This document shows, piece after piece, positions 2,655-41,553 of a DNA stretch of 41,553 bases (its first letter is position 1; each line of letters starts with the position of its first letter). Position numbers and translations under genes: made by a program. The stretch spans positions 1 to 41,553 of the forward strand of contig JBHJMP010000118.1 of NCBI GenBank assembly GCA_043381765.1, read 5' to 3'. Origin of the DNA: Collodictyon triciliatum. Lineage: Eukaryota. Under the pieces are notes generated by a model. The model saw only the letters and a list, made by a program, of their open reading frames with translations, had not been told where the DNA came from and did no database searches.

Positions 2655-2782
2655 TGTGCCGGAAGTGCGCTAGTGGGCAGTGGATCATGAGTATTCTTCT
2701 GGGGTGTGTTGCCTATGCTATGGAATTGTGCGATGCGCAGGATATTGGTGCAGGGCAGGCTGCGGTAGCGACTGGGAGGGGC

Positions 2783-15093: not shown

Positions 15094-15662
15094 NNNNNNN
15101 NNNNNNNNNNNNNNNNNNNNNNNNNNNNNNNNNNNNNNNNNNNNNNNNNNNNNNNNNNNNNNNNNNNNNNNNNNNNNNNNNNNNNNNNNNNNNNNNNNNN
15201 NNNNNNNNNNNNNNNNNNNNNNNNNNNNNNNNNNNNNNNNNNNNNNNNNNNNNNNNNNNNNNNNNNNNNNNNNNNNNNNNNNNNNNNNNNNNNNNNNNNN
15301 NNNNNNNNNNNNNNNNNNNNNNNNNNNNNNNNNNNNNNNNNNNNNNNNNNNNNNNNNNNNNNNNNNNNNNNNNNNNNNNNNNNNNNNNNNNNNNNNNNNN
15401 NNNNNNNNNNNNNNNNNNNNNNNNNNNNNNNNNNNNNNNNNNNNNNNNNNNNNNNNNNNNNNNNNNNNNNNNNNNNNNNNNNNNNNNNNNNNNNNNNNNN
15501 NNNNNNNNNNNNNNNNNNNNNNNNNNNNNNNNNNNNNNNNNNNNNNNNNNNNNNNNNNNNNNNNNNNNNNNNNNNNNNNNNNNNNNNNNNNNNNNNNNNN
15601 NNNNNNNNNNNNNNNNNNNNNNNNNNNNNNNNNNNNNNNNNNNNNNNNNNNNNNNNNNNNNN
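15094..15662. other. Assembly gap (N run)
   Basis: Run of n; probably hides 3' exon(s) of the RA/WH2 gene. Confidence 1.
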
Positions 15663-15737: not shown

Positions 15738-18700
15738 CCTTTCGTGCACTGGAAGCTCCGCTTGAAGGTGTGGATGTAACTACTGCCCCAACTTTTGCGC
15801 TAGGCGGCTCTCTTTCAGCAGGAGCAACCTAATATACGAAATAGCATTTATTTACATGTCTAAATATTCTAAGGTGATTCGTAGATCAGAGAAAAAACAC
15901 TAATATGTTGATTTATACTGTATTTTGGTGGGAATAGTTTCGAATAAATTTCGTAAATTATCTCTTTCATTCACAGATAAGATCTCGAAATGACCAATCA
16001 ATAGGATATGAAAAAAATACAAGTGTTAAAAAGTAATAATGAGACCTGTATAATACATCATAATGCAATTTTTTTTCACTGTACAAACCTTTTTTAATTG
16101 TGCACCTTGGCGAATAGACGCCAACAAAGCAGAGCGTCCATCTGAATCACCTAGTAAGATTTCATGAGTTTGTTAAACAGTAATACAAATAAAAATAGAA
16201 TCTTCAGTGATCAAGAAGAATCAAAATATTTTTATTTTGAAAGAAAGTAAAATTTTGGAGTGCATGAAGTTGATATTTGGTGAAAATACCTGAATCTTGG
16301 TCGCCTTTCTTGCTGGTCTATTTTCAGTTCACACCATAAATAAGTATTTTATGCGTCGTTTTCATATTTTTGATGAAATAGAATCATTTTAGTTGTAGAA
16401 TAAAAGAAATTGGACAGTAATGTGAGAAGAATGTATGGAAATTGTATAAAATATTAAAAGGTTGAAGAATATGCAATTACTGGAGGTGGTAGTGGTGGTC
16501 CTGATGATGCAACTGGTGCTTTGATGCCTGCACCTCCCATCGGTGGTGGCGGTGGTGGAGGTGGCGGGGCTCCTCCTGATGGCCCCATCATAGGCGGCGG
16601 TGGTGGTGGCGGTGGAGGAGGGCCGCCTGATGATGTAACTGGTGCTTTGATGCCTGCACCTCCCATCGGTGGCGGCGGGGGCGGCGGGGGCGGAGCTCCG
16701 CCTGATGACCCTACCATGGGCAGTAGTGGGGTAGCTGTTGGAAGTAGAGAGCTTGGTGGTGTGTTGAGTGTAGTTGCAGGTGGTTGATGAGTTGAACTTG
16801 GCTTGGGGTTATTCGGTGGTGTGGATGTTGATGTTGCTTGCCCCGAATTCAACTACAGATGATATTATCGTACATCATTTTATCTCTTTACACCAGAGAA
16901 TGAAGAAAGAAACCTTGTCTATAATTAATAAATTGTTTGGTTGTGAACTATAATATTTGCGCACATATGATATGGTTTATTGTATGTTTTTCTCTATTTG
17001 ATTGAAAGTGATATTTTATTGTATAGATCCTTGCATAAGAATTACTTGTCTCGCGGAACCCCCACTTTGCAACTTTGATAATAATTCAGCACGAAAATCT
17101 TTGACTGGAGCAGCTCCTACATTTTGTTTGGGAGCAGCACTTGGTGTCTCTGCAGGTCCTGTTGTTGTATTTGAAGTACTGCGAGCCTCTCCAACCTATT
17201 AAATATGATATGCATTTCTTAGATTTTGTATCAACCATGATGTATGCATATATATAGGAAAGATTGAACGTTTTGTTCTGCGTGATTGCAGAGGATCAGT
17301 CAAGGTATTAAGAAGATTCCAACAAGGTTGGTTACCTTCTTAAGGGATGCTCCACTCCTAATCGATGCGAGCAGATCAGATCTAGCATCACCCGAACTGC
17401 TATTGGATTTAGAGCTAGAGATGGCGGGTGGTGGGGGAAGGCCTCCTGATGATGCAACTGGTGCTTTGATTCCTGCTCCTCCCATTGGTGGGGGAGGTGG
17501 GGGAGGGGGAGGGCCTCCTGATGATGCAACTGGTGCTTTGATGCCAGCTCCTCCCATTGGTGGAGGAGGTGGAGGTGGGGGAGGGCCTCCTGATGATGCA
17601 ACTGGTGCTTTGATTCCTGCTCCTCCCATTGGTGGAGGAGGTGGAGGTGGCGGTGGAGGTGGCGGTGCTCCCCCCGACGATGTCGCCATTGATGGTGGTG
17701 GCGATACCACCGCTGGCGGCGGTGGTGGTGTCGGCGCGGATATTACCGGCGGCGGTGGTGGTGGTGTCGGTGTTGATGTAGATATTACTGGTGGCGGTGT
17801 TGGTGTCGGTGTTGGTGTTGGTGTTGGTGTTGGTGTTGGTGTTGGTGGCGGTGTTGGTGTCGGTGGTGTCGGCGTTGGAGTTGGTGTTGGTGTTGATTCA
17901 ATCGCTGGCGGTGGTGGTGGTGTCGGCGCGGATATTACCGGCGGCGGTGGTGGTGTCGGTGTTGGTGTACATATTACTGGTGGCGGTGGTGGCGTCGGCG
18001 TTGGTGTTGGTGTTGGTGTTGGTGTTGGTGTTGGTGTTGGTGTTGGTGTTGATACAACCGGTGGCGGTGTTGGTATCTGTGTAGATATCACTGGCGGTGT
18101 TGGTGTCGGTGTTGGTGTTGGTGTAGATATTACCGGCGGTGGTGGTGGTGTCGGTGTTGGTGTTGGTGTAGATATCACTGGTGGCGGTGGTGGTGGTGTC
18201 GGCGTTGGAGTTGGTGTAGATATAACCGGCGGTGGTGGTGGTGTAGATATAACCGGTGGCGGTGTTGGTGTCGGTGTAGATATCACTGGTGGCGGTGGTG
18301 GTGGTGTCGGCGTTGGAGTTGGTGTAGATATTACCGACGGTGGTGGTGGTGGTGTCGGCGTTGGTGTTGGTGTTGGTGTTGGTGTTGATACAACCGGTGG
18401 CGGTGGTGGCGTAGATATCACTGGTGGCGGTGTTGGTGTTGGTGTAGATATAACCGGTGGCGGTGTTGGTGTAGATATCACTGGTGGCGGTGGTGGTGTT
18501 GGCGTAGATATAACCGGTGGCGGTGTTGGTGTCGGTGTAGATATCACTGGTGGCGGTGGTGGTGGTGGTGTCGGCGTTGGAGTTGGTGTTGGTGTTGATT
18601 CAATCGGTGGCGGTGGTGGCGTAGATATCACTGGTGGCGGTGTTGGTGTCGGTGTTAGTGTTGATACAACTGGTGGCGTTAGTGTTTGTGTAGACATCAC

Positions 18701-18804
18701 CGCTGGTGTGGGTAACTTTGGTGGTGACTGTGGTGCTAGATCTGGTGGTCGTAGTATGAGAATATGCGAAAAATACAAGATATATCGTGAGCTTTGTGCT
18801 AGAC

Positions 18805-18837
<33 letters not shown>

Positions 18838-21800
18838 GATAATGATAATGATAATGATAATGATAATGATAATGATAATGATAATGATAATGATAATGAT
18901 AATGATAATGATAATGATAATGATAATGATAATGATAATGATAATGATAATGATAGTAATTAACTGATCCATAATATGAGGTGAATTATATGAACTTTAA
19001 TTAATTCAATCCTTTTTGTACTAGTTCAATAAAGTATCCAAACCAGTTAACTGAGTCCCCTCGTCACCAAGGGAGTTCAGTATGTCATCCAACTCTGTAT
19101 CGATGTTTACTCCTTCACGAGAAGGTTGGGTAACTTTGATGACAGAGGCCTCCAAGGGGTTCCGGGCAACCTTGACCACTTCAGGTGTCGGCAAAGATCC
19201 AACCGTTTCATGAATTTTTGGTTTTGTCTCATAAGTGCTCTATCGAATGATAGAACGTACGTTACCTTATGCATCGTATATTTATGTATCTGATGTATCA
19301 AAATCTTGTGTGAAAGGGAGGTTTATTGTATTATATTCGAGTAAGAAGGAAGAATATCACCAAGTTTACAAGAGGCATGTGAAATGCTCATAATATTCAA
19401 TCATTTTGTCTGTCAGGTGAATAATTCACCCTGAAACATATTGCGTGAATGAAAAAGTACCGCTTCCTCAATTTTTAATGCACTTTCCGAATTATATGTG
19501 CGCACTATCAAACGGCAGTATTCAAGAAATCACTAACAATATATGTGAATTTATGTTTGAATAACATGAGTCGATAAGATTTGCAAATTACGTGCAGGTG
19601 GATTTTGAATTGGAGAGTTGGATATCATGCTCCCTCCAACTTTAGGTGCCTGCAGTACCGAATAAGGAACATTTTTTGAATCAGAATATTGGTTATATCT
19701 CGAATTTCCCAATATAATTGAAGCCATAGAATAGACATGGGCTTCGTTACAATAGGAGAGCATATATATTTCAGCTGAGTAGCGTTTAAAGGAAAGCACA
19801 CTTGCAGAAGTTATAACATAGATTCGCTTACTTTGGGAGCTGCAAAAGATGGCGGTCTTTCGTATCCATATTTTGTCGCGACCTCATGTGGCGAATATAT
19901 TCTGACTGACTTAGACGAGCGAGCAGATGCGATGTCGTGTTTTTTGTCTTAAAGGCATTCATACATGTTAGTACAGAGCTCAAAAACGTTTTTCTATTCT
20001 TCCTTTCAGAGAGCTAAATAGCATAGACTATCTTTCGATTTGGATGATATAATATTACAGGGAAGGTACCTTGAGGAATAGGGCTGCTTGTGGGGACCAT
20101 CACCTACAGGGGTCGAGTTTGTTAAAATAACAACAATAATTCAGATTTACTCTAAATGTAAAACGATCTATATGCATCGTGAAACCCCATGGGTGAATGA
20201 ACTTTAAAATTTGTCACTAGAAATTCAAATATCATTTGGGACGTACAGATTCCATCGGCTTGTCCGAGACAAATTGTCTAAGACATGACATGCATATGTA
20301 GTTCTTCTCTGACTCTCTCCATGCTATTTGATCAGACTAAAGATAAAAAAAAAAATTCGAATTATGATAAATTTGTGACATCAATTGTATCATACAAATT
20401 TATACCGAACAGTGGGGACATTTGCTCGCAATTTTAGTCTCTGGAACGCTAGATGTCTAATGTGTTGTTGTCGATTAAATGGCTTTTCTTCTTAAAAATT
20501 AAAATAATAGACTAAGATTAAAAGAATTGCTTAAGGACAGCAATAGATCATGATTGGTAAAGACGTAAATTCATTTTAATTCTTCCTTTCAGTTTGTGCA
20601 AGGTGGTGGAGGTTTTGGAAAAGAAGTCGAATCTTAATTCTGAAACCATACCAACGGATTAGGCTTCCAGTCTCCAAACGAAGACGACTTCGACTTCGAA
20701 CCCTCTGAAATCGATCCTCGATGTGTGCCTGACCAAGCCATCCACCTCCCAGATTTTGTACGAATGGCTATATGTTTGCATATATTGTTATATCAAAGAG
20801 CACATGGTGATATCAAATGTTACTATCAATTAGGAATATGGGCATAGGTTTCTATACGTTCGATTCCTCTTTTTTTTTCAAACTAATGAAAGAATATATG
20901 ATTCATCGCAATAGTAGCTAGTGTGCTGCAGAACTCACCTTTCCTCTTTACCAGCCATAAGAATGATGAATCTGCCCCATGTTGTTGATAAATTCGATGT
21001 GGTTCATCCTCTGTCACAAGTTTTGTTTCTGTCAATCGAGAAATGAACGATTTTAGAAATATTTGTAAATCTTCTCGAAGATTAATCACTAGGTAAACTA
21101 ATACACTGGGCTATTGCCCTTCAAGCTTAGATATAAACAGTTGTTGAACGATGTCAGATTTCTGTGACGGTCAAGTAGAAAAATGAAAAATGACGGAAAA
21201 TAGACGTATAGGGTGGAATAGTTTGGATATTTCTGTTACGTTCCTCCTTTCACTTTAGAAATATTATGGACAAGAGTATAAGAAAGAATTTAAACGAACC
21301 ACTTCCTTTGACTGAATAACGCAATGAGCACTCTTCGAATGCAAGTTTCTCATGAGAACTTTTGTTTACTGAGTCACAAATGTCCTTGGTGAAACTCTGC
21401 GACAGAAGCCATGAAAAATTACAGTGGCACAGTCAGAAAATAACACATATACAAAGTAAGTTTGAACCATCAATTCGAGCAGATATGTGTAGTATATTGC
21501 AGGAGAGAGGGCAAGACATGACAAATATACTTGCATACAAGTTGTGTGGAGAATAATCCACTTTCACATTACCGAGACAGTGGTGGACGGATTAAGCCAA
21601 ACACTGACATACTCTTGCTGTGAGTTCAAGTTTTTGTCGAGGTATACTCTTGCAATCTATGAATGCAAACACGTATGTTAAATGAAGAAAATATTGGTTG
21701 AGTTAAAGTTTTGAATATTGAAATGAATCTCTTAAATCTAAAACATAATCATTTGAGGACAATTACAATAATAAATTCGGGAAAAAATTGATATGTGAAT

Positions 21801-22167: not shown

Positions 22168-22357
22168 TAGAAGAATCTTTAGGGGATTTGATCAGTGTTG
22201 TCTTCTTGTCTGTTTTTTCCCAATCCTAATTGATCTAAATGGATGAATTGCTTGGGACAAGATCTGCGGTGGGTGGCTCCTGTATAAGTAAATGAAAAAA
22301 AATATGTTTTAAGGAGTACCAAAGAAAACTTAGTTGCACAAGGAGAGGAGGGAGGAA

Positions 22358-22556
22358 NNNNNNNNNNNNNNNNNNNNNNNNNNNNNNNNNNNNNNNNNNN
22401 NNNNNNNNNNNNNNNNNNNNNNNNNNNNNNNNNNNNNNNNNNNNNNNNNNNNNNNNNNNNNNNNNNNNNNNNNNNNNNNNNNNNNNNNNNNNNNNNNNNN
22501 NNNNNNNNNNNNNNNNNNNNNNNNNNNNNNNNNNNNNNNNNNNNNNNNNNNNNNNN
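22358..22556. other. Assembly gap (N run)
   Basis: Run of n inside the presumed last Roco intron. Confidence 1.
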
Positions 22557-25500
22557 TGAATAACAAACAACGATATCTTACGTGGTCTTTCAGCTCCAGT
22601 TTACGAATAATTTCATAATCTGGATTGCTCTGCTCGTTCCAACAAGGCAGAAGTGTGATGCCGGGAGGCGCCTTCTTGATGTTCGATTTTCCTTCTCTGT
22701 TGCGGATGCGCAAGCGACTGAGAGCAGTCAGAGCAATAATTCCGACAGGAAGCTCATCAATCTGTAGGAATGGAAATATAATTATGAGTTCAAAATAGTG
22801 GCCTGACTTTTCGACATTTATACATTTAACAAACCGAATTATCACGGATATCCAACTGTACAAGGCCCCTTAAAGAGCATAGTCCTGGTGGTAGTGATGA
22901 CAACTGATTTTGAGAGACATCAATACGAGTGAGGCCATACAAGCATGATATTTCTGGAGGTAGTGATGACAGCTGATTTTGAGAGACATCAAGGCGAGTT
23001 AGGCAATTCAGGCGTGATATTTGAGCAGGTACTGATGATATCTGTAAATCATGGTAAATGAGAAAAAAAATAGAGCTTCGAACGAAATTTCTTCAATAAT
23101 TGAAATGAGATTAAACACACTTTTTTCATAAAGGTTGGTAAATGAAAAAATAATACTGCAAACCTGATTATTTGATAAGTCCAGATACACAAGGTTTGTA
23201 AGAGTAAAGCATGGCTTCGGGAAAGATTCAACCTGAAAATGAGATGTAGGTTACAGTAAAAGTAATATTTATATGAAAAGTATGGTTGTTTTAGATGTTA
23301 TGAAATATTACTTTGTTTGAATGGACGTAGAGTTTCTTTAGCCCAACTAAATGCTTGAGCGAATCAGGAATCTGGGAGAGCTTCATATTGCCCATCCACA
23401 GCGAGGTTGCATGTTGGATTCCATGATTGTTAGGAGTGTATCGCACATTCACAAGTGGAAATTCTTCTAATTCTTCAAGGATACCAGAGCTTAATGGCTG
23501 TTTACGATGTTCAATCTCATTTGGCCGCAAATCGTCGTTAATCACTTGTGATGCAAACGAGAGTTCTTGCTCAGAAAGCGAATGGGTCGCATGGACATCA
23601 GGCTGGTCAAGCTTGGATATTATTTTTCCATCAAGCCTCAAAGCCATCACTTTCTCAAGTAATCTTTTTGACAATTCGTCTTTCTTTTTCTGCAGATGAG
23701 TCACCAATTGGCTGTAAAATAATTCCTTAACTTTTCTCTTCGTAGCTTTGGAGTTACTGGCGGCATCTTCCTCCATAGACAATTCAACGAAAGCAGAAAT
23801 GTCATCTGGTGATATGTGATACATCTCAACCATTGTGCTTTCATCCAGTTTATCTTGAATTTCTTGGAATCTTTCCCAGCCCATTTGATTTGAAATTGTA
23901 TCGCTTAGTTTTAAAAAGCCATGTTCTCGAAGCCACTCCACAAATTCGCCCTGGTTCATATCAGCCAAAGGAGTATATTTAATTGGAATCAATTCATTCA
24001 TCGTCTTTTGAGAAAGCCTTTGTTTACCTGATTCCAATTCATCCAAGTATGCACAAACTTGATTTAAAGAAGGTCGGAGCTTGTAGTTTTGCCTCCAGCA
24101 TGCCCTGATAAGATGGTTATACTCACGAGTGGCTTCTTTCGGTATTTGAGGTCGTAATCCCCTCATGACAAAACTCTGCGTTTGTGCTTCATTCTGGAAA
24201 GGATCGACGCCAGAAAACATGTACCAAACGAGCATTCCCAAGGCATACACATTACTTGGTTCTCCTCGATGGCCAATATTGACTTTTTCCTCACCATACA
24301 TGTAAGGATTATCATCATAAAACGGCTTAGATGAAAGTTCATGAATTTCCGGTGCTTGCCAATTAGCAGTTCCGTCTTGTTTGTCCTCGCCAAATTTCGT
24401 CGGTAAGCTTGACCCGACTTTATCAACTCGACGACGGCTCACTATTCCGAAATCCACAATTTTTACCGTTGTTTCGCCCGCAATCATAACGTTGTCGGCC
24501 TTCAAATCCTCGTGGTAAAGGTGTTGAGAATGCATGAAAATGAGACCCTTGCACAGTTGTTTTGTGTAAGATATAATTTGAGGCAATGTTGGTTTAATAT
24601 TTTTCTTCTCCAACATCGCTTTCAACGAAATACCTGCATTCTCCATAACCATGAAAAAGTCGTCGTCTTTGCGATACACGCCGGACAATTTGACAATATT
24701 CTCACATTCATAACATTCATGTAGAAACTTGCTCTCAAAAATGAGTGATTGAATCACCTTACTGAGGGTCTGCTCCTTGCTCTTCTGCATAGTTTGGATT
24801 TTCACCACAGCACTTTTTCCTTCGTATGTTGTTGTATAAACTCGCCCATACGACCCCTTTGCGAGATAACTCGAAAGTTCTATTTTTTCATCAATCCACT
24901 GTTTCTTCAATTCTCCGTCGATTGAATCCAGCTCAAGAGTTGCTTCAGCAGATTGCGGCGTCTTTTTCTTTTTCGCTCTCACCACAGAGTTGAATCTCCT
25001 TGATATCCCTTTTTCAAGTATTAAATCATTTACTAGTTTTCGATAATTTTTAATCAAATTATCATTAAGTTTTAAAAAACATGTATAATAATATATTGAT
25101 TGAATAAACCTTGTTCAAGATAGACGCGCCCTTGCTTTACTTCACTTGCTTCCAATTGATGGCTCTCAGTACACTCATTCAATTTAGAGTCATCTATCTT
25201 TCCCGAAGTTTTAATGTAGCCGCGTAATCCATGACGTTGACATTCTGGACATTCAAATTGGTATTCTTTCACAAAATCTTGTCGAATCGATGATATTTGT
25301 TCGATGAAGGTTAAAAGAATATCGAAAATCCTGACGAATCTATCGCCTTCATCAATTTCATTTTCATATTTTCTAACCTTGACTGAAATATTCTTCTGGC
25401 GGATTTGGTACAAAATAATCAAGTCATTTCCAGGATGAAGTTGAATTTCATCCGTTCCTGTTTTGTAGGAAGCATTCAGATGTATGAACGCTACATCTCT

Positions 25501-26714
25501 GAAAAACTGGTCGTCATACTGAACTCCAGCTTGTGCCTCTTTTGACAAACGAAGTGCTTGAATGATGAAGTTGCTTTTGTCAGAGAGCTGGACCTCACCA
25601 TTGGTCATTATTTTTACCGATGTTTCAGCGATGCAGTTTGACTCTGGTTTTTCATTCCACAAGGACTTAATATTGCTACAATCTTCCATCAGTGAGGGAA
25701 AGGCGATACATTCTTTGTTAAATTGAACCCCAAGGCCGAAATGGTCAAAGATTCGAAGAATTGTACTGAACACTTGTTCATCTAGTTCTATACTCAACTC
25801 TTGTTTTATTTGGTCTTTTAGCTTTCTCAACAAAATAATGCCATGTGTGTCCTTACTGATACCTTTGAAGCTGAAGACACAGCGATATATGTTGATGAGG
25901 AATAGGGGGTCTAAAAAGATACGATCTCTAGCACTTGTAATATCTGAGTACCAAATGATCGAACCAAGGTCGTGGAGGAAACTGAGAGCACTTTCGCAAA
26001 AGCTTTCATCCTTTCCTTGCGATATCCTGCAGAAATCTTTGACACCCTGGAGAGATTCATATGGCATTGAAGCCTTTGATTCCAGGTAACTCTTGATAGA
26101 AATGTAATCTTTAGAGACAAGCTTCATCACATTATCCAGCTGGGTCATTCCTTTGTATATCAATTCCTTCAAATCTGAAATGTGTTCTCCACTCTTATTG
26201 CTAACTTTCAATTCTGTGTTGATGAAGATGTGGTGAGCCTTTTTATTCGGTTTTTGTTCATTTATTTTTCTTGATTCTCTCAATTTCTTCATGCATCTCT
26301 TGGCTATAATTTTTAACTTCAGAATCCTGATAAGTCCCAGCGATGATGATTTTTGAACCAGGTGCAAAGTCATCAAGCATCTTAATCCACCGATCGAGGT
26401 TATTCTTCTTCTTGTCTTGGTCGAGTCTGTACAGAATTAAAACGAGGGCGCCTGATGACAAAAAGAACGGGTGTGTTACTTGGAACTCGTCTTGTCCCCC
26501 AAAGTCCCATACACGAACTGTGATTGGTTCATGCTCACCACGCACAGAAAATTCATGAATATCAACGTGTGCAATACCATCGGTTCGCTCTCGCTTCTGG
26601 TCTGTGGTGTTCTTGAAATCCTCAGATTTCTGTGAGATTGACTTTGAGAGTGTGGTTTTTCCTGTTTCACCCTCGCCAAGAAGCAATAATCTTCCTTGTG
26701 TCCAGCGCATAGAC

Positions 26715-26946
26715 CGTAAGGAGAGGATACTGGGGTCTCGAAAGACTATGATGCTTTATTGTTCTCGCTAGGAGAAAAGGGGAAAGGTAGGCACAGCCAG
26801 GCGTAGGAGGGGCCCATAAGTATGGGAGAAGACGCCTAAGTGTGGCTCATCCTTATTTAAGCCGCTTGCGTGTCTCTTCCTCGAAATTTTCCTGGTGAAC
26901 TGTGTTCCAGAAATGTATAGTCCCTTGCAAAAGGGCGTTTGTTACA
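26715..26946 (-). mobile_element. Solo LTR-like element, 232 bp, inserted in Roco coding sequence
   Basis: Minus strand starts TGTAAC and ends CCTTACG (TG...CA with the last base altered). Flanked by direct repeat TAGAC at 26710-26714 and 26947-26951 (extendable to CATAGACC). Contains TTAAATAA (TATA-like) and AATAAA about 40 nt before its end. Removing it plus one repeat restores ...FLLGLKGGS-MRWTQGRLLLLG. Confidence 0.8.
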
Positions 26947-28984
26947 TAGACCCTCCCTTGAGACCCAATAGGAAATTAATCACAGATTCTGATCCTTGTT
27001 CAATCACGTCCAGTGGTATATTAATTATTGGGTTGCCTTTAACATAGAGTCCCCTCTTCAACAGTTTCATTTCAGCCAGCTCATATGGTAACATCTCAAT
27101 CTATCATAAAAAGAGAGGGTCAAAAATCACTCGCACATAAATTTCAAGTTAATGACCGGACAATAAATGTAAAAAATAAACATCGGGATGCGGGGCAACC
27201 TGGTTGTCTCTAACATCTAGACTTTTGAGATTACTCAAGATACTGATTTGGGGTGGAATTCCTACCAACTAAAAGAAAAAATGGGTGAAAATGAATAATT
27301 TTTTTGTAAAACTTCGTCACCATTACTGATTTCAAAGTACCTTGTTCTTGGACAGATTTAAATTTTCCAAGGAACCCAACTGGAACAAGATATCTGGTAT
27401 CGACGTCAACTATTGATTCCAAGGTGAGTGTGCCGAGCGAAGGAAAAAGATAAATAGGCAAAATGATAAGATACTTTGCGATGCAAATATTTTGTTTTTT
27501 CTAGTAAAAACAAAAAAAAAACCTGATTGGAGGAGAAATCATATGCCTTTTTGTGAGGAAGAAGGATAATTTCGTTTGGTATTCTACGAAGGTTTTTTTG
27601 TGACATATGCACACCATCCTCCACAAGACTGATTGAATCCAGAAAACTTTGAACACTCTCAGCAAACTTGTTATTTTGCAGGTTGAGATATCTTAAAACC
27701 TCTAACCTCTTTAAGTCTGGAATTTCTGAAACCTACAAAAGTATACGAAAAGAATCTTATCATAGTATCATATTTTACACAAATTCGAGTCGAGTACATC
27801 AAATCCAATATGATTGAAAAGACAGAGATTGATGCTATAATACCTCATTGTGAGACGCAGATAGCTCCTGGAGTGATGGCATCTCGCCAATAAATGCTGG
27901 GATTTCACTAAGCTAAAGCCAGAAAATAAGATTTGGATGCGTAGTAAAGTAATTACATGGCTCATGTTTATCAAGCGAATATGACTAATATTTAAACCTA
28001 TTGAAGCATATGCACCTTATTATAATCGACAGTGAGCGCGCTTAGATATCTAAGATTTGAAATCCCATGAGGGAGGTACGACAAAAGATTTTGGGCTAAA
28101 TGTAATCTCTGAAGTTTGGTGATAGAGGATATGGCATCAGGTATGAACGAAAGTCTGTTACGCTTGAGATCGACTCCCACAAGATTTGTAATTCCCAATA
28201 ATCCCTCTGGGAGGGAGGAGAGTGAGTTTTCACCAAGTCGCAATTCGTCAAGCTTCTTTAAGTTACTCAAGTCTTCAGGGAGATGGTTAATTACATTTCC
28301 TTCTAGGGAGAGAACCGTCAGATTTGTTGCATTATGAATTCCGTATGGAAGTTCTGGGAGTTGGTTGTGATCCAAGAGTAACTCGACCAGCTTCGACATA
28401 ACAGACAGTGCTCTGGGAAGGGAATGGATAGAGTTATGGCTCAAGTGTAATCTTGAAAGAGAGAGAAGGGCTGACAACTCTTCTGGTAGGGAGGTAAGTT
28501 GGTTTTGATCCAAACCCAAGCTCCGTTAGCCCTGATAGGAGAGATATCTGAGGTGAAAGGAAGGACAGCCCTACATTTGTTAAGTGGAGGACAACCAAAT
28601 TTGTCATCAAGTAAAGGTCATCTGGTGCCCGAGGAATGCCGGTGTTTTCAATGATGAGGTTGTAGGCATTGCAAAAATTAAGATCGGCGGTAAGTGCATA
28701 CATATAGGCAGAAGACTCAAGAAGTCTGAGTCCAGGGCTGTTCTGGAGAAGTGTTGTGGTCCCCTTTGCTGCCATGGTGCGGCTGCTTTCTGCTCTCAAA
28801 AAATGAAATGAAACAATATACAGCATTAGGAGGGCAATCACAACAACCTGCTTTCAACCATGACCTTGATGCGCCTTGTGTACGATTCCTCCACCTTAGC
28901 CCTTTGCAACAGGTTTTTTGTTGTTGCTCTTTCTCTGTCCACTCTCTTTGGCACCGTCTCTACCTTTGCAGTGTTTGCTTTCTG

Positions 28985-35238: not shown

Positions 35239-38162
35239 CTACGGGTCAAGCCAATCCCCGCTGTCATCACTCGGGACGTAGTCGCTTTCGTCAGATTGCA
35301 TTAGACTCGCTTTTCGAACCGAGAGGGCTTGCTTTAGCATGGTTGTGAATGACTTCATGAAATTGATGGACTGCCGTACGTTGTTCTGCAATTGAATAAT
35401 CACAAAAGAAAGGAAGAAAGAAGTAAAGCCACAGAGTCAGGTTGAAGTATATGAATTACAAAATCTCTCAACTAGAGTGGACACGAATGCTGGTGCTCTG
35501 TACATTCCAGCAATATCCATGTGGGGTTTAAATATTGGACGGTGTTGGACAGCCAAACCTTTCGCGGGGGTTGCTCGGCCACCTTTCGAAGAGAAATGCC
35601 CTGCCGAATCTCCTCCAAGAGCATGGCCATCGGTGCTGCGACAAAGAAGCAAGTTATGGGTGCGGCATAACAAAACTAAAACAAGGGAAACAAAAAGGGA
35701 GGCTTGTATATGTTTGATAGGCATTCGAATCAGACTGCTCTAAATGGAGCTTATATAAATGAATAAATTGCTCTTAAGTCACAGCTTATGTTAAAATATG
35801 AACAACCATAGTATGGAGAGTCTGTACATATTCAAAGGCAGTGTTACTTCTTTTCTCTTTTCTTTCTTTTTTTTTTTTAAAAAAAAAAGGTATGGAGAAT
35901 ATTTTGTATGTACGAACTTGTATCTTTTGTTTTGTTCTTTGGAGATTCGGAAATATTGACATGCTTTAGATTTCCTGCCTTTTGTCGCATTTCATTCATA
36001 AGTTGGGACTGTACATCCATCGAACCTAATTATGAGTTAAAAAATAGATACATATTTAATAAAGAAAAAGATAGATGAATAAAACAACCACATGAAAAGG
36101 ATAAAGTTAGCATCTGTAGGGAAGCAAATAAGTGATTGCTCTCTCAAAAAAACAAAAACAAAAACAAAAACAAAAACAAAACAAGAAAAAAACAAGAAAA
36201 AAAACAAGGATTTTCATTCCACAAACCTGACTTTGGTCCGTTCGCCTTGTTGGGTTCAAGATTATCATGGCGCTTCTTCAGGGCAACTGCAGCAAGGTCA
36301 GACGGCGAGAAAGGTATGCCACCAAAAGCTCTGTTATCTGCACCAGCAGAAGAAAAAGAGGGGATTTCTTTTGCAGAGGTGGGAAAAGAATGAGGAATTG
36401 GTGGCGGTGGCGGTGGCGGCGGTGGCAGTGGCAGAGAAAAGTTAGGTAGAGATGGGGGAATCACGCTGGTCTGTTTTTCATTGGGCGTGGGTGTAGATTG
36501 TGCTTCGAAAGAGAACGGGAGGGAAAGGACGGCCTTGTGTGCGTTGGATGCAAGCAGGGAAACAGGAGTAAGTGCACTGAGACCGACCCACGTGCCTGTG
36601 AGCGACTCTGGAGCCGCCTTGCCTGCCCACAGGTTAAAGTCCAGCATGCAGGCTTCCACGCGGGATGCTACGTCTGCCATGGTGCCTGCAAATGCAGCCA
36701 GATGCGGGACAAAAGCGGGCAACCCCGTTTCTGCCTGCGTCCCGCCGCGCTCCACGTCAAAGCCCGCCACGGCCTGGGTGAGGACGGTGAGCTGCGCAGA
36801 CATGGCCGATATGGACGAGTAGAGTGCCTTGAGCGTAGTCTGGACCACAGAGGACTCCTTTGCGATGCGCATCTTGTCCTTCTCGGCAAGCATCTGCGTC
36901 TGCTCCAGCTGCCTGATCTGCTTCTCGAGCTCATCCACACCGATGTTTTCGATCACGTCGGTGATTGCACGCGTGGCCATCTTTGCAGAGGCAGCATCAG
37001 GCCCGGTCTTTCCTTTCTCATTGCCTTTGTCTTTGTCTTTTGCCCTCTCCTTTGCTGCAGACGCATGACTGAAGCGGAAGCGCGGCGGCGGAGGCCCGAC
37101 GATGCCCTGGATGGAAGGCAGCGGCGCAGACAGCGAATCTGCGTCGGACGCGGCAGACCGGCTCTGCTGCTGGGCCGGATTTGAGCGGCGGGACGCTTCG
37201 TCCCAGGCGGCAGACGGCTTTCTGCGCAGGGCAGAGACGGGCTCGGCATCGGGCGGTGCCTCCGCCCCAGGGCCCCGCATCTGCTGCATCTGCTGCTCGT
37301 AGTGCTGCTGCATCTGCCGCAGACGCGACTTGTACATGCGCGTGCGCTCGCTCAGGGCGCGCTGCTGGTCGTAGACCTTCCTCTGCAGCTCGGCAACACT
37401 CCTCTCCAGGTCAAAGATTTTGCGCTCCTGCGTCAGCTTCTGCGCAAGAAACGCCTTCTGCTTCGGCTCTACACCGGGCGGGTTAGCAGCTGTTGCCGTT
37501 GCCGTTGCTGTTGCTGTTGAGAGTGATGGTGATGGTGATGGCGATGGCGATGGCGATGGCTTTGTTCGGCGTGGCTGTGCGGAGGCTGCGGCCGTGGCAT
37601 TCGGAGAATCGCTCTGCGGCTGCGACTCGAGCGAGAGGACAGCCTGCTGCAGGCGCTGGACTTCGCGGTCGTACATGTCGCACATCTTATCGTAGAGCGA
37701 CTGCAAGCGCAGATTGTCCTGGGCCACTGCATCCAGCCGCTGCCGGGCCGTCGTCGCCTGCTGCTGCAGCCCGTCCTTGTCGGCCGCGAGGATCCGGCAG
37801 TCCTGCTCGAGGCGTCGGATCTGTGCGCTCTGCTCCTGCACCTGCGACTCCAGCGCAGTGATCTTTGCAACAGGCGGCGGCGCTTTTGGCCCGGGGCTCG
37901 CGTGCCGGCCGGATTGGGCGGACGATCCGCGCGTGGCCGCCGCAGTGCCGGGTGGGCCGTGTGTGCTGCTCGGTGCCGCCGGGGCGCAGACGCGTTGTGT
38001 GCCGGGATCGGAGAGCAGCAGCTGCGACGGCGTGGGTTGCCGTCCCCGCGCAGAGGCGAGTGTCGCAGGCGCAGCCGGAGTTTCGCTTGGGCGTCGCGCT
38101 GATCGCAGCCCTTCGATTGGACGCCGCACCTGCGTCCCAGCAGAGCCGGAGCGGACAGACAT
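35239..38162 (-). CDS. Coiled-coil / polyproline / WH2-central-acidic (WCA) protein, putative Arp2/3 nucleation-promoting factor; exons 38162-36227, 35635-35559, 35385-35239
   Basis: GT-AG splicing joins ...PPPPPPPPP...FSPSDLAAVALKKRH...GPKS-APMAMLLEEIRQGISLRKVAEQPPRK-NNVRQSINFMKSFTTMLKQALSVRKASLMQSDESDYVPSDDSGDWLDP TAG. Phases 1 and 0 match exactly. Confidence 0.85.
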
Positions 38163-38471
38163 CGGGGGAGTCCTTCTTTTGTTGTGGTTTTTTTGTTTTT
38201 GTTCTTTGTTTTTGTTCTTGTTTTTATTTGTGGGTATTTGGGGTTGGGTGTGAAGAAGGCTACGGTGGCTGATTAGCGCCCGCATGCGTGTGTGTGTGCG
38301 TCTTTCCTTATCTTGTTGGGTAGGAAACTGTATATGATTACATGTATGTGTATCTGTGTGTGTGTATGGGTGTGCGTCATTCCCTTCGGTGGAAGGTCAG
38401 AAAACGTCTCTGTCTTAATCTTTCGCCCTGTTTTTCCTCTTCTTCCTCTTTTTTTTTTTTTTCCTTTTTTT

Positions 38472-38528
<57 letters not shown>

Positions 38529-38646
38529 TTGGCCAGACGACGCTGCAAGGCTACATGGGAGCGTGTATACTCCAGCCTGTTCTTGTGAGAGTGCAAAACT
38601 TGTGCGCAGGAAAAGGGCGAAGCGTCCGGCGGCATCAGCGGGTCTC

Positions 38647-38832
38647 CTAGGACTGCTTGCGGGCAGCGGCCTTCTGTGCAACCAGAGCTGCGATGCTGAA
38701 CATGCCCGATGCGCCGGCTGGTGGCTTCTTTCCTCCTGTGTCTGGGCCGCCTGGGCCGCCCAACGACCCTGCGGAGGCGCTGCTTGTCTATTGTTTAAGC
38801 AGAGAGAAAGAGAGAAAGAGAGAAAGAGAGAA

Positions 38833-38912
<80 letters not shown>

Positions 38913-41313
38913 AGGTGTTTGCAAGGTACATCAGCGCACAGATATGATAATAACTATACTGATTGTTATCATCATTGTCGCCGAATGTAACCATCGTATA
39001 TCGCAAACACCACCCGGATGTCATCACCAAGATGAATGCTTACTGCAGGAAGGAAAAATAACATAAAAATAATCAAATGAACCATCGGCGGCTTCTCGGG
39101 TGGGGGCGCAGCCTTCTTGAGCTTCTTGCCGGCCTGGATTTGCGCAAGAAGGGCGTTGCGGTTGTCGTCGGCAGGCGGGGCAGCCGATCCTGCGGCCATC
39201 GGGGCAGACGCGGCCTTCATCAGAGGTGGCGGGGGCGGCGGTGGGGCTCCACCCATCATGGGCGGGGGCGGCGGAGGCGGCGGAGCTCCACTCATCATGG
39301 GCGGCGGGGGCGGCGGGGGCGGAGCTCCTCCAGCAGAGGCAGAAGCGGCAGCCTGGCTCTCGAGCTGCTGGATGCGACTCTGCGCCTTCTCGAGCTGCTC
39401 TTCGGTGCGCTGCAGCTTTGCAAGCAGGTCGGCCGAGCCCGGTACTGAAGCCGAGGTGGACGCGGTCGAGGGCGGAGCAGCTGCGGTCGGTGTGGCTGAC
39501 TTCTGTAGTGGGCCGTTGAATGTGGTGAGTCGCATGTCACGGCATCTGCTATTGCTGCTGCTAATCCGTACAAAGCGCACGAAGCCTCATGGAGAAGATA
39601 CAAGAGAATACAACGGCTGGTAACATTTTTTTTTTTTATTTTTTACAAAAATAACTTATTCTTACCTTTTCAGCTTCGAGCTTTTTGACTTTCTCCTCCA
39701 AAACGGCCTTTTGCTATGATTTGGCACGTGCGTTTAGATCTGAGAGTTGGTCTCGATTGTGGTGTATTTAGGATACAAGCAAGGGTTTCGGTAGAGGATA
39801 AACCTGGCGTGCTTCATCGCGCTCGGCTGTGGTGGTCTTCAGGCGCTGTTGTGATGAGCACGCGTTAGTATTCTGAGCAAATATACGAACACACAAATGA
39901 CAGAACATGTGGCTGAAAGACTGCGAAATAATATTCGCGATGGTGTCAATGAAATCACACCCCTTCGGCTGAGCTCAATTGAGTGGTGGCTTCTTTCAGC
40001 TTCTGTATAGTTTTATTTTTATAATGTATGCAAAAAAAATCAATACAAGGGATAAATTTCTTTTTTTTTAAAAAAAAAATGATGGTGATGTAGGCAGCTT
40101 TACCCGGTCGGCCTCGGTGCGGGCTTCCTCATTTGATTTGGAATCCTTGTGTTCAGAAAGTAATATCAATGTGCATTTATTAAAGATTGATTGGTATATT
40201 ATGACATAAAGTGATGATCATTTGCAGATGTCATTAATGAGAGCAAAATGGACTATGATTTTTTTCCCATTATTCGATTCAAAGAAAATGGACTATGATA
40301 ATCATACTTATAATTACAGCAATACAATGTAATTTGAATACAGATGAGGAAATTGAGAATTCCAAACTGTCATGTATGAATGTCAGCAAATCTACCTGGG
40401 ATTGGCTCGCACGAAGGGATTGAACTTCAGAGTTTTTCTACATTCCCAACAAAAACATCAAAAGTATGTGGGGTAGAAAATGATAAAAGTAGAAAAGGGA
40501 GCGAATGGATGATGACTTCACTCAGAATTTGGATACATCGCCAAATAAGTCATACTAGAAGACATATAGGATTTTCAATCACTCACCTTTTCAAAATCAA
40601 GTTTTATTGCATCCAAATCCTTTGTTTTCTGTTTTTATCATATGTTAGTATATTAGTGTATGATTTTGTTTTTCTTGGGAACAATTTTGCCAAAGGGGAA
40701 AAAAACATTCGCAAATTCCAAAGGTGAAAAATGAACATACCTTTTCAAGGTCAGTCTTGAGCAGCTCCGACTTTTTGGATGACTTTGTTGGGAAGAATGT
40801 GTATTGGACGAGGAAAAATGAAAATGAAAATTGGCAATATGTTAGATAATAATACGATACTCGAATGTTAAAACGCTATTACTTGGAGTGTAATTGTACA
40901 TTTTTATTCATGTGACGATAACAAGCGCAGGTTGAAGTTTTTGAATTTACTTCATTCATTTGATCATCATAAATACCTCTGTTGCCTCACTTTTCAGCTT
41001 CGAAATTTCACCAGTAAGCTTTCGATTGAATAATAATTAATTCAGGGCCCCGTATAGGTAATCGCAATCGGAGAAACTCATCCAGTAATATTATTATTAT
41101 TTATTTAACTTTTGCAAATCGCGAATAAGAAAAACCTTCTCAACACTTTCTTGACTTTGAGATAGCTCCTTCTTTTTCTAAAAAAAATAATAATGATTAA
41201 ATCAGTAGGAAGAAGGAAACACAACTATAAAAAAAAAAAAAGCTTCATAAAGTTGAAGCTCAAGGTTTTACATTTTCTATCTCAGATCGCAGAGACTCTA
41301 ACTCGCGCTTGGA
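38647..41313 (-). CDS. Coiled-coil / polyproline / WH2 protein, 5' end outside the window; ten micro-exons followed by exons 39502-39083 and 38787-38647
   Basis: Heptad-patterned micro-exons, then [12 protein letters not shown] repeats, WH2 [18 protein letters not shown], and a terminal exon ending [22 protein letters not shown]. Confidence 0.85.
38801..38909. repeat. (GA)n / (GAGAAAGA)n intronic microsatellite
   Basis: Directly visible. Confidence 0.95.
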
Positions 41314-41553
41314 CTAAAACAGTAAATTGTTTTTTTTAAAAAAAAAATAATTATTCACGTGCTTTAGAAAGTGTTAAACATTTAATTTTCATAAACGTGA
41401 TTACATTTCACAAAAGCTTGCTCGTAACATGGGCTGGTTATGAAAATCAAGAAGGAAAGGGGGGGGGGGGGGGGGGGGGGAGAAAAGGAAAAAAAGAAGA
41501 GGAATGCGCCCCCCCCCCCCCAAAAAAAAGAAAAAAAAAAAAAAAAAAAAAAA

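What the first reader, a model, noticed from the sequence alone, without database searches (positions are those of the whole stretch)
39666..41313. Coiled-coil rod built from ten consecutive phase-0 micro-exons of 42 nt (two heptads each)
Seen: minus-strand AG/GT-bounded exons at 41313-41272 ([14 protein letters not shown]), 41177-41136 ([14 protein letters not shown]), 41018-40977 ([14 protein letters not shown]), 40782-40741 ([14 protein letters not shown]), 40628-40587 ([14 protein letters not shown]), 40437-40396 ([14 protein letters not shown]), 40145-40104 ([14 protein letters not shown]), 40002-39961 ([14 protein letters not shown]), 39845-39804 ([14 protein letters not shown]) and 39707-39666 ([14 protein letters not shown]; an alternative AG gives 48 nt from 39713). 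Sequences are diverged but length and phase are fixed, with hydrophobic residues often at positions 5, 8 and 12. All are invisible to the ORF track. Established: 14 aa is two coiled-coil heptads. Inference: any exon can be skipped without losing frame or heptad register, so this could be a splice-tunable molecular ruler in front of an actin-binding polyPro-WH2 tail, or a relic of exon-duplication growth.
Basis: partly seen in the sequence, partly recalled or inferred. Interest (0 to 1): 0.8.

Follow-up and report, generated by a model that had tools for sequence, protein, structure and literature searches.

The report
Two-heptad micro-exon array, confirmed by RNA
An expressed gene of an unidentified freshwater eukaryote builds a helical rod from nine 42-base exons and one 48-base exon, each about two coiled-coil heptads, ahead of an actin-binding tail; it is a tidy case of growth by exon duplication, not a new mechanism.

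Summary
All ten AG/GT-bounded open segments are in the sequence. Spliced RNA contigs from 4 runs of 3 studies join them in order. Each of the 10 joints appears in at least 2 runs and 2 studies, and one 1706-nt contig crosses the whole array. Exons 1-9 are exactly 42 nt.

The 142-residue product has a strong 3.5-residue hydrophobic period (0 of 2000 shuffles reach it). It also shows weak but significant in-register similarity between exons (0 of 2000 shuffles).

Downstream lie a short unsplit coil, three polyproline tracts, a Pfam WH2 motif and a basic amphipathic tail motif. Unnamed environmental Kelch-spacer-polyPro-WH2 proteins share that tail motif.

The most likely origin is old tandem duplication of an exon-plus-intron unit, with exon length held by reading frame and heptad register. 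No exon-skipping joint was seen, but contigs cannot show rare isoforms, so the "splice-tunable ruler" is unsupported rather than refuted.

AG/GT chains alone are not beyond chance; the RNA and the periodicity carry the case. Known parallels include the paired 42-bp K-domain exons of MADS genes and the one-exon-per-repeat arrays of Ectocarpus. I rate it a new member of a known kind, of moderate interest.

The parts
41272..41313 (-). Micro-exon 1 (42 nt, 14 aa), first unit of the heptad rod. It is joined upstream to an exon outside the window.
   Evidence: AG/GT, open; joint 41177/41272 in X1 and X4. Loose ends of 255 letters at 41315 in X1 and X2 show a further upstream exon, also phase 0, whose last 10 residues are Ala/Gly/Ser-rich and not heptad-like.
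41136..41177 (-). Micro-exon 2 (42 nt)
   Evidence: joints 41177/41272 (2 runs) and 41018/41136 (4 runs).
40977..41018 (-). Micro-exon 3 (42 nt)
   Evidence: joints 41018/41136 and 40782/40977 (4 runs each).
40741..40782 (-). Micro-exon 4 (42 nt)
   Evidence: joints 40782/40977 (4 runs) and 40628/40741 (3 runs). Its 3' end plus donor resembles that of exon 5 in register (family D6).
40587..40628 (-). Micro-exon 5 (42 nt). It is the most AT-rich exon (GC 0.26) and shares 23 of 42 nt with each of exons 2 and 4.
   Evidence: joints 40628/40741 (3 runs) and 40437/40587 (2 runs).
40396..40437 (-). Micro-exon 6 (42 nt)
   Evidence: joints 40437/40587 (2 runs) and 40144/40395 with cut +1 (4 runs).
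40104..40145 (-). Micro-exon 7 (42 nt). GC-richer (0.60), with polar or Ala residues at the core positions.
   Evidence: joints on both sides in 4 runs.
39961..40002 (-). Micro-exon 8 (42 nt)
   Evidence: joints 40002/40104 (4 runs) and 39845/39961 (3 runs).
39804..39845 (-). Micro-exon 9 (42 nt)
   Evidence: joints 39845/39961 and 39713/39804 (3 runs each).
39666..39713 (-). Exon 10, 48 nt (16 aa), not 42. The two extra N-terminal residues put its two Leu on the same heptad position as the main core position of exons 1-9.
   Evidence: joints 39713/39804 and 39502/39666 in X1, X2 and X3..
39083..39502 (-). Exon 11 (420 nt, GC 0.71). It holds a Pro/Ala/Ser/Thr linker, a short unsplit coil (about 39353-39430), three polyproline units (39-nt repeat, 39228-39328) and a WH2 motif (39110-39169).
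   Evidence: contig pieces 39083-39502. (39-nt tandem repeat). (WH2 PF02205, residues 113-132 of P0001). (aligns to the N-WASP WH2 repeats).
38647..38787 (-). Last coding exon (46 aa plus a TAG stop). It carries a basic amphipathic tail motif, has no Trp, no Glu and one Asp. The 3' UTR runs to about 38502, next to a genomic A-run.
   Evidence: loose ends at 39083 in X1 and X2, whose 30-letter consensus matches window 38758-38787 at 29 of 30 letters (compared by eye). The intron 38788-39082 has GT..AG ends; 14 of 27 residues identical to the collinear motif in P0013.

Best explanation
These ten segments are real exons of an expressed protein-coding gene on the minus strand of an unidentified eukaryote. 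All available transcript contigs include every one of them.

Shown:
- Nine exons of exactly 42 nt and a tenth of 48 nt, all phase 0, are spliced in order.
- They encode a 142-residue, proline-free, K/E/S/L-rich stretch with a strict 3.5-residue hydrophobic period.
- Each 42-nt exon is one 14-residue unit with the same internal layout: hydrophobic at positions 5, 8 and 12, and polar at position 1.
- Downstream come a linker, a second short coil inside a large exon, three polyproline tracts, a WH2 motif and a short basic amphipathic motif.

Inferred, origin:
- The array grew by tandem duplication of a unit made of one 42-nt exon plus its intron.
- The duplications are old. Exons are only about 33% identical in DNA, and the introns share nothing detectable.
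- The exact exon length has been kept because any change that is not a multiple of 21 nt would break the frame or the heptad register.

Inferred, function:
- The rod is a parallel coiled coil. It oligomerises the protein and holds the C-terminal actin-assembly module at a distance of roughly 21 nm from an N-terminal part that lies outside the window.
- The actin module would work through profilin-actin recruitment by polyproline and monomer binding by WH2.
- The N-terminal part may be a Kelch propeller, as in the nearest relatives.
For: - Splicing: one search lists 10 of 10 joints with GT..AG ends, each in 2-4 of 4 runs and at least 2 of 3 studies. One 1706-nt contig carries 9 x 42 + 48 + 420 nt in order.
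- Frame: one search finds 0 stops in frame 0, against 7 and 13.
- Phase: all 12 introns of the visible gene part are phase 0.
- Periodicity: one search counts L/I/V/M/F by position mod 7 as [6,4,1,1,11,0,1]; 17 of 24 lie on an a/d-type pair, reached by 0 of 20000 shuffles. One search gives power 72.2 at period 3.5 against 9.1 +/- 8.9 in shuffles (0 of 2000 reach it), with 0 Pro and 2 Gly.
- Repeat unit: one search gives mean in-register identity of 13.78/42 nt and 2.67/14 aa, against 11.96 +/- 0.43 and 1.51 +/- 0.16 in codon shuffles (0 of 2000 reach either). Register shift 0 is the best of 14 shifts and shift 7 the second best. In one search (D6) the adjacent exons 4 and 5 share their 3' end plus donor.
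- Actin module: one search finds WH2 above Pfam's cut-off, and one search finds the polyproline repeat.
- Relatives: searches find P0013, P0030, P0049 and P0004 with Kelch, a helical spacer of 256-485 residues, a short coil, polyPro, WH2 and a basic tail motif. WH2 is 18/23 identical and the tail 14/27 identical to P0013.
- Micro-exons are not the local norm. The neighbouring ROCO gene has its LRR, Roc, COR and kinase parts in open frames of 165-607 aa, and the same gene's second coil is unsplit.
Against: - No intron-to-intron similarity beyond A/T runs (best 26.5 bits), so duplication of exon-plus-intron units is not directly visible.
- Exon-to-exon similarity is weak (19% aa). Part of it could reflect convergent coiled-coil composition, although the codon-shuffle and register-shift controls argue against composition alone.
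- Position 1 of 9 of 10 units is polar, and exons 7-9 have Ala or polar residues at the core positions. The middle of the rod may therefore not be a stable coiled coil.
- The spliced product could not be sent to the structure tools, so neither the fold nor the oligomeric state was tested.
- No orthologous genomic locus was found, so the age and history of the array are untested.
- The N-terminal part lies outside the window, so its identity is unknown.
- Function in actin assembly rests on motifs only.
Confidence: 0.6

Rival explanations
1. Periodic intron gain. A pre-existing, uninterrupted 14-residue repeat rod acquired introns independently at the same recurring proto-splice site. The units tend to end in ...AAG or CAG and are often followed by A, so exon boundaries mirror the repeat without any exon duplication.
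For: -: 7 of 10 exons end in AAG, GAG or CAG, a splice-site-like context that recurs at the same place in the repeat unit.
- in the relatives P0013 and P0004 the helical spacer lies in one uninterrupted ORF on 11-kb and 6.3-kb contigs. That these are genomic contigs is an inference.
- the introns share no sequence.
Against: - It needs about ten independent insertions at exactly equivalent codon boundaries, with none elsewhere in the rod. Duplication explains this in one process.
- The spacers of the relatives are unrelated low-complexity repeats, not the same 14-residue unit. They say little about the ancestor of this rod.
- The second coil of the same gene has no intron.
Confidence: 0.15
2. 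Splice-tunable ruler. Regulated skipping of one or more 42-nt exons changes rod length in steps of two heptads (about 2 nm) without loss of frame or register. This would tune the distance between the N-terminal part and the actin module.
For: - All exons are symmetric (phase 0-0), and nine are exact multiples of a heptad.
- Spacer length varies widely among relatives, 256-485 residues, so length is evolutionarily free.
- Titin's PEVK region is a known case of length tuning by exon skipping (listings and abstracts only).
Against: -: in 4 runs of 3 studies every listed joint links neighbouring exons, and none skips an exon.
- The full-length contig holds all ten exons.
- no cryptic cassette exon lies in the introns.
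- Contigs cannot show rare isoforms, so the test is weak.
Confidence: 0.1
3. The rod is not a coiled coil. It would be a charged single alpha-helix or a partly disordered spacer, and the heptad signal of exons 1-6 would be only a local feature.
For: -: 46% charged residues and 25 i/i+4 opposite-charge pairs.
- the core positions of exons 7-9 are Ala or polar, and position 1 is polar in 9 of 10 units.
- the relatives P0004 and P0013 have A/E/K- and A/K/D-rich low-complexity helical repeats at the same place. By recall, these resemble single-helix linkers.
Against: -: 17% L/I/V/M/F, sharply confined to an a/d-type pair, with a 3.5-residue period that 0 of 2000 shuffles reach.
- By recall, stable single helices are typically more charged and lack such a hydrophobic stripe.
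Confidence: 0.12

Closest known systems
MIKC-type MADS-box genes, K-domain exons 5 and 6 (42 bp + 42 bp)
   Same: Consecutive 42-bp exons encode heptad-repeat, coiled-coil-forming sequence. Their lengths are conserved across many plant genes (PMC4852290, passages read). Exon duplication lengthened the K domain (bioRxiv 10.1101/2023.03.15.532791, passages read).
   Different: Plants have only two such exons side by side, in a transcription factor. Here there are nine plus one in a row, in a cytoskeletal-type protein of an unrelated organism. No sequence relationship was tested or is expected.
One-exon-per-repeat arrays in Ectocarpus LRR and TPR genes (ROCO, NB-ARC-TPR)
   Same: Runs of successive phase-0 exons of identical length, each encoding one structural repeat, so that gain or loss of an exon adds or removes one unit (PMC3341825, passages read).
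   Different: Those exons (for example the 72-nt LRR exons) are recently shuffled and similar to one another. Here the copies are old and diverged, and the repeat is a heptad pair rather than an LRR or TPR. The ROCO gene in this window has unsplit LRRs.
Titin PEVK exons; collagen 54-bp exons (collagen by recall)
   Same: Many short, symmetric exons of near-constant length, each encoding a repeat unit of an elongated protein. In titin, exon skipping changes the length (listings and abstracts only).
   Different: Different folds (disordered spring, triple helix). Regulated skipping is documented for titin and was not seen here.
Schistosoma micro-exon genes (MEGs)
   Same: Genes made largely of short symmetric exons (abstract of bioRxiv 10.1101/2023.06.21.545858, seen in the listing).
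   Different: By that abstract, MEG exons vary in length (3-81 bp), have long introns (up to 5 kb) and encode secreted proteins. Here the exon length is fixed, the introns are 90-250 nt and the product looks cytoskeletal.
Unnamed Kelch - helical spacer - polyPro - WH2 proteins from environmental assemblies (P0013, P0030, P0049, P0004)
   Same: The C-terminal module is collinear: short coil, polyproline, WH2 (18/23 identical to P0013) and a basic amphipathic tail motif (14/27; alignment). It is preceded by a long helical spacer.
   Different: Whether this gene has the Kelch propeller is unknown, because that part lies outside the window. The spacers share no sequence with each other. In P0013 and P0004 the spacer is in one open frame. 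No paper on such a family turned up in one search.
Ena/VASP EVH2 module and the WASP-family VCA module
   Same: Both combine polyproline with a WH2-type monomer-binding site, a short amphipathic helix and an oligomerising or regulatory part. The Ena/VASP-like hit P0053 (WH1 + VASP_tetra) has a similar basic motif after its WH2-like site.
   Different: There is no acidic, Trp-containing end as in the WASP-family hits. The coil lies N-terminal to the polyproline, not at the C-terminus as in P0053. BLASTP does not detect the tail motif against P0053.

Membership tests
Tandem exon-duplication repeat arrays (one exon per structural repeat) | Successive exons of identical length | tested here: met
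   9 of 10 exons are exactly 42 nt and the tenth is 48 nt.
Tandem exon-duplication repeat arrays (one exon per structural repeat) | All exons symmetric, flanked by introns of the same phase | tested here: met
   All 12 introns of the visible gene part are phase 0.
Tandem exon-duplication repeat arrays (one exon per structural repeat) | Exons similar to each other in register, beyond composition | tested here: met
   13.78/42 nt and 2.67/14 aa against codon shuffles of 11.96 +/- 0.43 and 1.51 +/- 0.16 (0 of 2000 reach either). Register shift 0 is the best of 14. The signal is weak in absolute terms.
Tandem exon-duplication repeat arrays (one exon per structural repeat) | Similarity between the duplicated introns | tested here: not met
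   only A/T-run matches (26.5 bits at most). This is expected for old duplications, but it leaves the mechanism inferred.
Coiled coil (heptad repeat) | Hydrophobic residues at a and d positions with a 3.5-residue period, and no helix breakers | tested here: met
   (17 of 24 on an a/d-type pair; 0 of 20000 shuffles reach it). (period 3.5 power 72.2 against 9.1 +/- 8.9; 0 Pro). The core is weak in exons 7-9.
Coiled coil (heptad repeat) | Forms a stable oligomer of supercoiled helices | not testable with these tools
WH2 motif (Pfam PF02205) | Match to the family model above the curated cut-off | tested here: met
   32.7 bits against a cut-off of 23.1, residues 113-132 of P0001; aligns to the three WH2 repeats of the N-WASP chain 3m3n_W.
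WASP-family Arp2/3 activators (VCA) | Acidic C-terminal motif with a conserved Trp after the WH2 and connector | tested here: not met
   The last 46 residues hold one Asp, no Glu and no Trp, and end basic. The WASP-type hits P0015, P0020, P0060, P0064 and P0067 all end in acidic runs with Trp.
Ena/VASP | N-terminal WH1/EVH1 domain and C-terminal tetramerisation coil | tested here: inconclusive
   The N-terminus is outside the window. No coil follows the WH2, because the protein ends 65 residues (19 of exon 11 and 46 of the last exon) after the Pfam WH2 match, so the C-terminal coil is absent. The oligomerising part is N-terminal instead.
Formins | FH2 domain after the polyproline (FH1) region | tested here: not met
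   Only 98 residues (52 of exon 11 and 46 of the last exon) follow the last polyproline tract, and Pfam finds nothing but WH2. The formin hits match the polyproline only.
Kelch - spacer - polyPro - WH2 proteins (unnamed, environmental) | N-terminal Kelch beta-propeller | not testable with these tools
   The 5' part of the gene lies beyond the window end. There is no whole genome and no metagenome contig.
Kelch - spacer - polyPro - WH2 proteins (unnamed, environmental) | Collinear short coil, polyPro, WH2 and basic amphipathic tail motif | tested here: met
   (P0013 aligned over query residues 6-138, E 5.4e-7). (18/23 and 14/27 identical). (alignment).
Splice-tuned length modules (titin PEVK type) | Transcript isoforms that skip individual repeat exons | tested here: inconclusive
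   no skipping joint in contigs of 4 runs.

The most novel reading that the evidence does not exclude
The rod is a length module that the cell adjusts. Condition-dependent skipping of individual two-heptad exons would change the reach of a dimeric, Ena/VASP-like actin-elongation module in steps of about 2 nm. The gene would belong to an undescribed Kelch-rod-polyPro-WH2 family in which spacer length sets where actin is assembled relative to the propeller's binding partner.
Probability: 0.07. Interest if true: 0.7.

Novelty: new member of a known kind. Interest (0 to 1): 0.4.

Why it matters
This is an unusually regular example, confirmed by transcripts, of protein periodicity written into gene structure. 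One exon equals two heptads, nine times over, and the exact length has been kept although the sequences have diverged almost completely.

It gives gene-structure researchers a test case for three questions:
- how 42-nt exons are recognised in a genome with short, AT-rich introns;
- how repeat rods grow;
- whether symmetric exons are used to vary rod length.

Standard ORF-based annotation misses such genes entirely. The gene also points to a group of Kelch-spacer-polyPro-WH2 proteins that I did not find described, which may be actin-assembly factors of protists.

Tried and rejected
- Whole genome: none is held. The array could not be extended upstream and no genome-wide exon-length census could be made.
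- Protein searches with the large exon gave only polyproline, formin and WH2 noise, and no annotated protein of this gene.
- Metagenome scans found nothing, with an exact 33-nt stretch of exon 1 or with the large exon as a protein (596 pattern matches, none confirmed). No orthologous locus or extra transcript was obtained.
- The AG/GT chain statistic does not separate the array from chance. I rejected it as evidence.
- Intron-to-intron BLAST and the direct-repeat search showed no relic of duplicated introns.
- A search for hidden cassette exons in the introns gave 7 open AG..GT candidates in the 11 introns. All are hydrophobic or low-complexity and none resembles the rod.
- PDB sequence search of the last exon gave only a chance match (E 0.89).
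- Protein Atlas: best score 0.79, below the level the tool calls a lead.
- BLASTP of the tail motif against the Ena/VASP-like P0053 detected nothing, so the resemblance rests on the small alignment and on recall.
- Earlier findings of the scan held nothing relevant.
- Literature searches found no paper describing an array of 42-nt exons in a coiled coil other than the MADS K-domain pair. No supplements were opened.
- Odd rows:
  - X2 shows letters between 39644 and 41330 (table 5c). Both ends lie at homopolymer runs, the ends are not splice sites, and it is not listed as a joint. I read it as a low-complexity artefact.
  - X1 shows a joint at 39248/39301 that skips 52 nt inside the 39-nt polyproline repeat. 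I read it as repeat collapse or a copy-number variant.
  - X4 has one unspliced piece at 40792-40951 (intron 3), either pre-mRNA or DNA.
- The parts of the stretch without RNA cover are the introns, and contigs join across them.
- Structure prediction and complex prediction were not used. The spliced product is not an accepted input, and the unsplit pieces would not answer the question.
Full report
**1. The observation**

Each is 42 nt, open in frame 0, preceded by AG and followed by GT, and gives the stated peptide.

Sequence alone is not compelling. I searched the whole window for chains of AG-42 nt open-GT segments spaced 50-400 nt apart. The opposite strand gave a chance chain of 12 in GC-rich, stop-poor DNA (36359-39122). 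One hundred block shuffles of the minus strand gave chains of mean 4.1 and up to 10.

The decisive evidence is RNA. No whole genome is held. A search of public runs found 7 runs holding part of the stretch, and I laid four of them: X1 and X2 from study P1, X3 from P2 and X4 from P3.

- Their contigs show ten joints with GT..AG ends. These remove 39503-39665, 39714-39803, 39846-39960, 40003-40103, 40146-40395, 40438-40586, 40629-40740, 40783-40976, 41019-41135 and 41178-41271.
- Each joint is seen in 2 to 4 of the 4 runs and in at least 2 studies.
- X1 and X2 are only guessed to be RNA by the tool, but contigs that lack precise GT..AG intervals can only come from spliced RNA.
- One X1 contig of 1706 nt carries 9 x 42 + 48 + 420 nt in order, at 99% identity or better.

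**2. The rest of the gene**

Loose ends at 41315 in X1 and X2 show that exon 1 is joined to a further exon beyond the window.

- The 30 letters shown translate in frame to an Ala/Gly/Ser-rich stretch that is not heptad-like, and that intron is again phase 0. The heptad array therefore seems to start at exon 1.
- The contig holds 572 nt upstream of exon 1 that I could not see.

After exon 10 comes a 420-nt exon (39083-39502). A loose end at 39083 matches window 38758-38787 at 29 of 30 letters (compared by eye). This defines a 295-nt GT..AG intron and a last coding exon of 46 codons ending in TAG. All 12 introns of the visible part are phase 0.

**3. What the array encodes**

I built the spliced product inside scripts only. 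It has 0 stops in frame 0, against 7 and 13 in the other frames.

Composition and periodicity of the 142-residue product of exons 1-10:
- It is K/E/S/L-rich, with no proline and two glycines.
- L/I/V/M/F fall on positions mod 7 as [6,4,1,1,11,0,1]. Seventeen of 24 lie on two positions three apart, which 0 of 20000 shuffles reach.
- Hydrophobicity has power 72.2 at period 3.5, against 9.1 +/- 8.9 in shuffles (0 of 2000 reach it).

The repeat unit:
Position 1, the fourth core position, is polar in 9 of 10 units.
- Exons 7-9 have only Ala or polar residues at the core positions, so the middle of the rod is weak.
- The two extra residues of the 48-nt exon 10 bring its two leucines onto the same heptad position as the main core position upstream.

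Similarity between exons:
- In register, mean identity is 13.78/42 nt and 2.67/14 aa. Codon shuffles give 11.96 +/- 0.43 and 1.51 +/- 0.16, and 0 of 2000 reach either value.
- Among 14 register shifts, shift 0 is best and shift 7 second best.
- The neighbouring exons 4 and 5 share their 3' end and donor site.
- The introns share nothing beyond A/T runs.
- No hidden rod-like cassette exon lies in any intron.

Base composition:
- Exons are purine-rich (0.62 against 0.44 in introns).
- Exon GC rises along the gene: 0.26-0.48 in exons 1-6, 0.52-0.67 in exons 7-9 and 0.71 in exon 11. Introns stay at 0.23-0.43.

**4. The tail and its relatives**

The large exon holds four features in order:
- a Pro/Ala/Ser/Thr linker;
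- a short coil that is not split by introns;
- three polyproline units, a 39-nt tandem repeat;
- a WH2 motif above Pfam's cut-off (32.7 against 23.1 bits), which aligns with the WH2 repeats of N-WASP.

The last exon carries a short amphipathic motif followed by basic residues. It has no tryptophan and one acidic residue.

A full HMMER search of 1.84 billion representatives gave 59 hits at E of 0.001 or better, none near-identical.

- **Best collinear hits.** P0013, P0030 and P0049, together with P0004, have an N-terminal Kelch propeller. It is followed by a helical spacer of 256-485 residues, a short coil, polyproline, WH2 and a similar basic tail motif.
- **Identity to P0013.** The WH2 is 18/23 identical and the tail motif 14/27 identical, in collinear positions.
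- **WASP-type hits.** These end in acidic runs with Trp, which this gene lacks.
- **Ena/VASP-type hit.** P0053 has a similar basic motif after its WH2-like site, but BLASTP does not detect it.
- **Source of the relatives.** All are unnamed environmental ORFs. In P0013 and P0004 the spacer lies in one open frame on contigs of 11 and 6.3 kb, so I infer it is probably not split there.

**5. How it most likely works**

Shown:
- An expressed gene, with every exon of the array included in all contigs seen.
- A heptad-periodic rod of 142 residues, about 21 nm long if it is a coiled coil.
- Polyproline tracts plus a WH2 motif downstream.

Inferred:
- The rod oligomerises the protein and spaces an actin-assembly module from an N-terminal part that may be a Kelch propeller.
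- The actin module would recruit profilin-actin by polyproline, bind monomer by WH2 and possibly bind filament through the basic helix.
- The array arose by old tandem duplication of an exon-plus-intron unit.
- Exact length has been preserved because only changes in multiples of 21 nt keep both the frame and the register.

Rivals:
- Periodic intron gain at a recurring AAG/CAG context.
- Regulated exon skipping (the ruler idea).
- A single-helix or flexible spacer instead of a coiled coil.

No skipping joint was seen, but contigs cannot exclude rare isoforms.

**6. Comparison with what is known**

Arrays of equal-length symmetric exons that each encode one repeat are well known:
- Ectocarpus LRR and TPR genes (PMC3341825, passages read).
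- Titin PEVK (listings and abstracts only).
- Collagen 54-bp exons (by recall).
- For coiled coils, the MIKC MADS-box genes. These keep two adjacent 42-bp K-domain exons (PMC4852290, passages read), and exon duplication lengthened the K domain (bioRxiv 10.1101/2023.03.15.532791, passages read).

Four full-text searches found no description of a long run of 42-nt exons in a coiled coil. One search found no paper on a Kelch-WH2 family. Those searches cover open-access text only, and I opened no supplements.

The micro-exons are not a general habit of this stretch of genome. The neighbouring ROCO gene has its LRR, Roc, COR and kinase parts in open frames of 165-607 residues.

**7. Verdict**

The rod, the actin-type tail and the duplication relic stand. 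The tunable ruler has no support yet.
- It is a new, very regular member of a known kind of gene architecture, of moderate interest.

Noticed in passing
window 16454-18985 (-): A second polyproline-WH2 gene. It is a 561-aa open frame with very long Pro/Thr-rich repeats and repeated Gly/Pro units, ending in a WH2 motif (Pfam PF02205, 29.3 bits). The opposite strand is open over the same repeats.
   Followed up: partly
window 36144-38396 (-): Directly downstream of the finding's gene lies a 750-aa open frame with coiled-coil-like stretches and a polyproline tract, all in one frame. It has no Pfam family. This contrasts with the split rod next door.
   Followed up: partly
window 23291-28853 (-): A ROCO-type gene with LRR_8 (28001-28525), Roc (26261-26755), COR-A (25075-26436) and a protein kinase (23294-25114), in large open frames. 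The closest database hit for the kinase part is only 25% identical.
   Followed up: partly
P0013, P0030, P0049, P0004 (environmental proteins, not in the window): A group of unnamed proteins with a Kelch propeller, a helical spacer of very variable length and sequence, a short coil, polyproline, WH2 and a basic amphipathic end. In P0004 and P0013 the spacer is low-complexity A/E/K or A/K/D repeats. One search found no paper on them.
   Followed up: partly
window 39666-41313 versus 38647-39502: There is a sharp composition step inside one gene. Exons 1-6 have GC 0.26-0.48 and sit among introns every 42 nt. Exons 7-12 have GC 0.44-0.71 (0.44 in exon 10, 0.52-0.71 in the others), and exons 11 and 12 are large. 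The window's GC profile shows the same step near 40 kb.
   Followed up: partly
window 40245-40299 (intron 6): A 15-nt exact direct repeat, 40 nt apart, lies inside the longest intron of the array (D5). One X1 contig lies on 40230-40288 and then runs on unlike the window. This may be a dispersed repeat inserted in the intron.
   Followed up: no
window 39228-39328: A 39-nt tandem repeat encodes the polyproline units. One X1 contig skips 52 nt here (39248/39301). This is either repeat collapse in assembly or a copy-number variant.
   Followed up: no
window 2073-2669 (-); 10686-11102 (-): A GTP cyclohydrolase I exon (PF01227, E 8.9e-40) and an IPT/TIG-domain exon (PF01833).
   Followed up: partly
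window about 15090-15650 and about 22330-22560; 38440-38530; 38800-38920; 41459-41553: Runs of N (assembly gaps) show as X-runs in the ORF list. There are also very long homopolymers and a (CT)n microsatellite. The window ends in homopolymer runs 140 nt or more upstream of exon 1.
   Followed up: no
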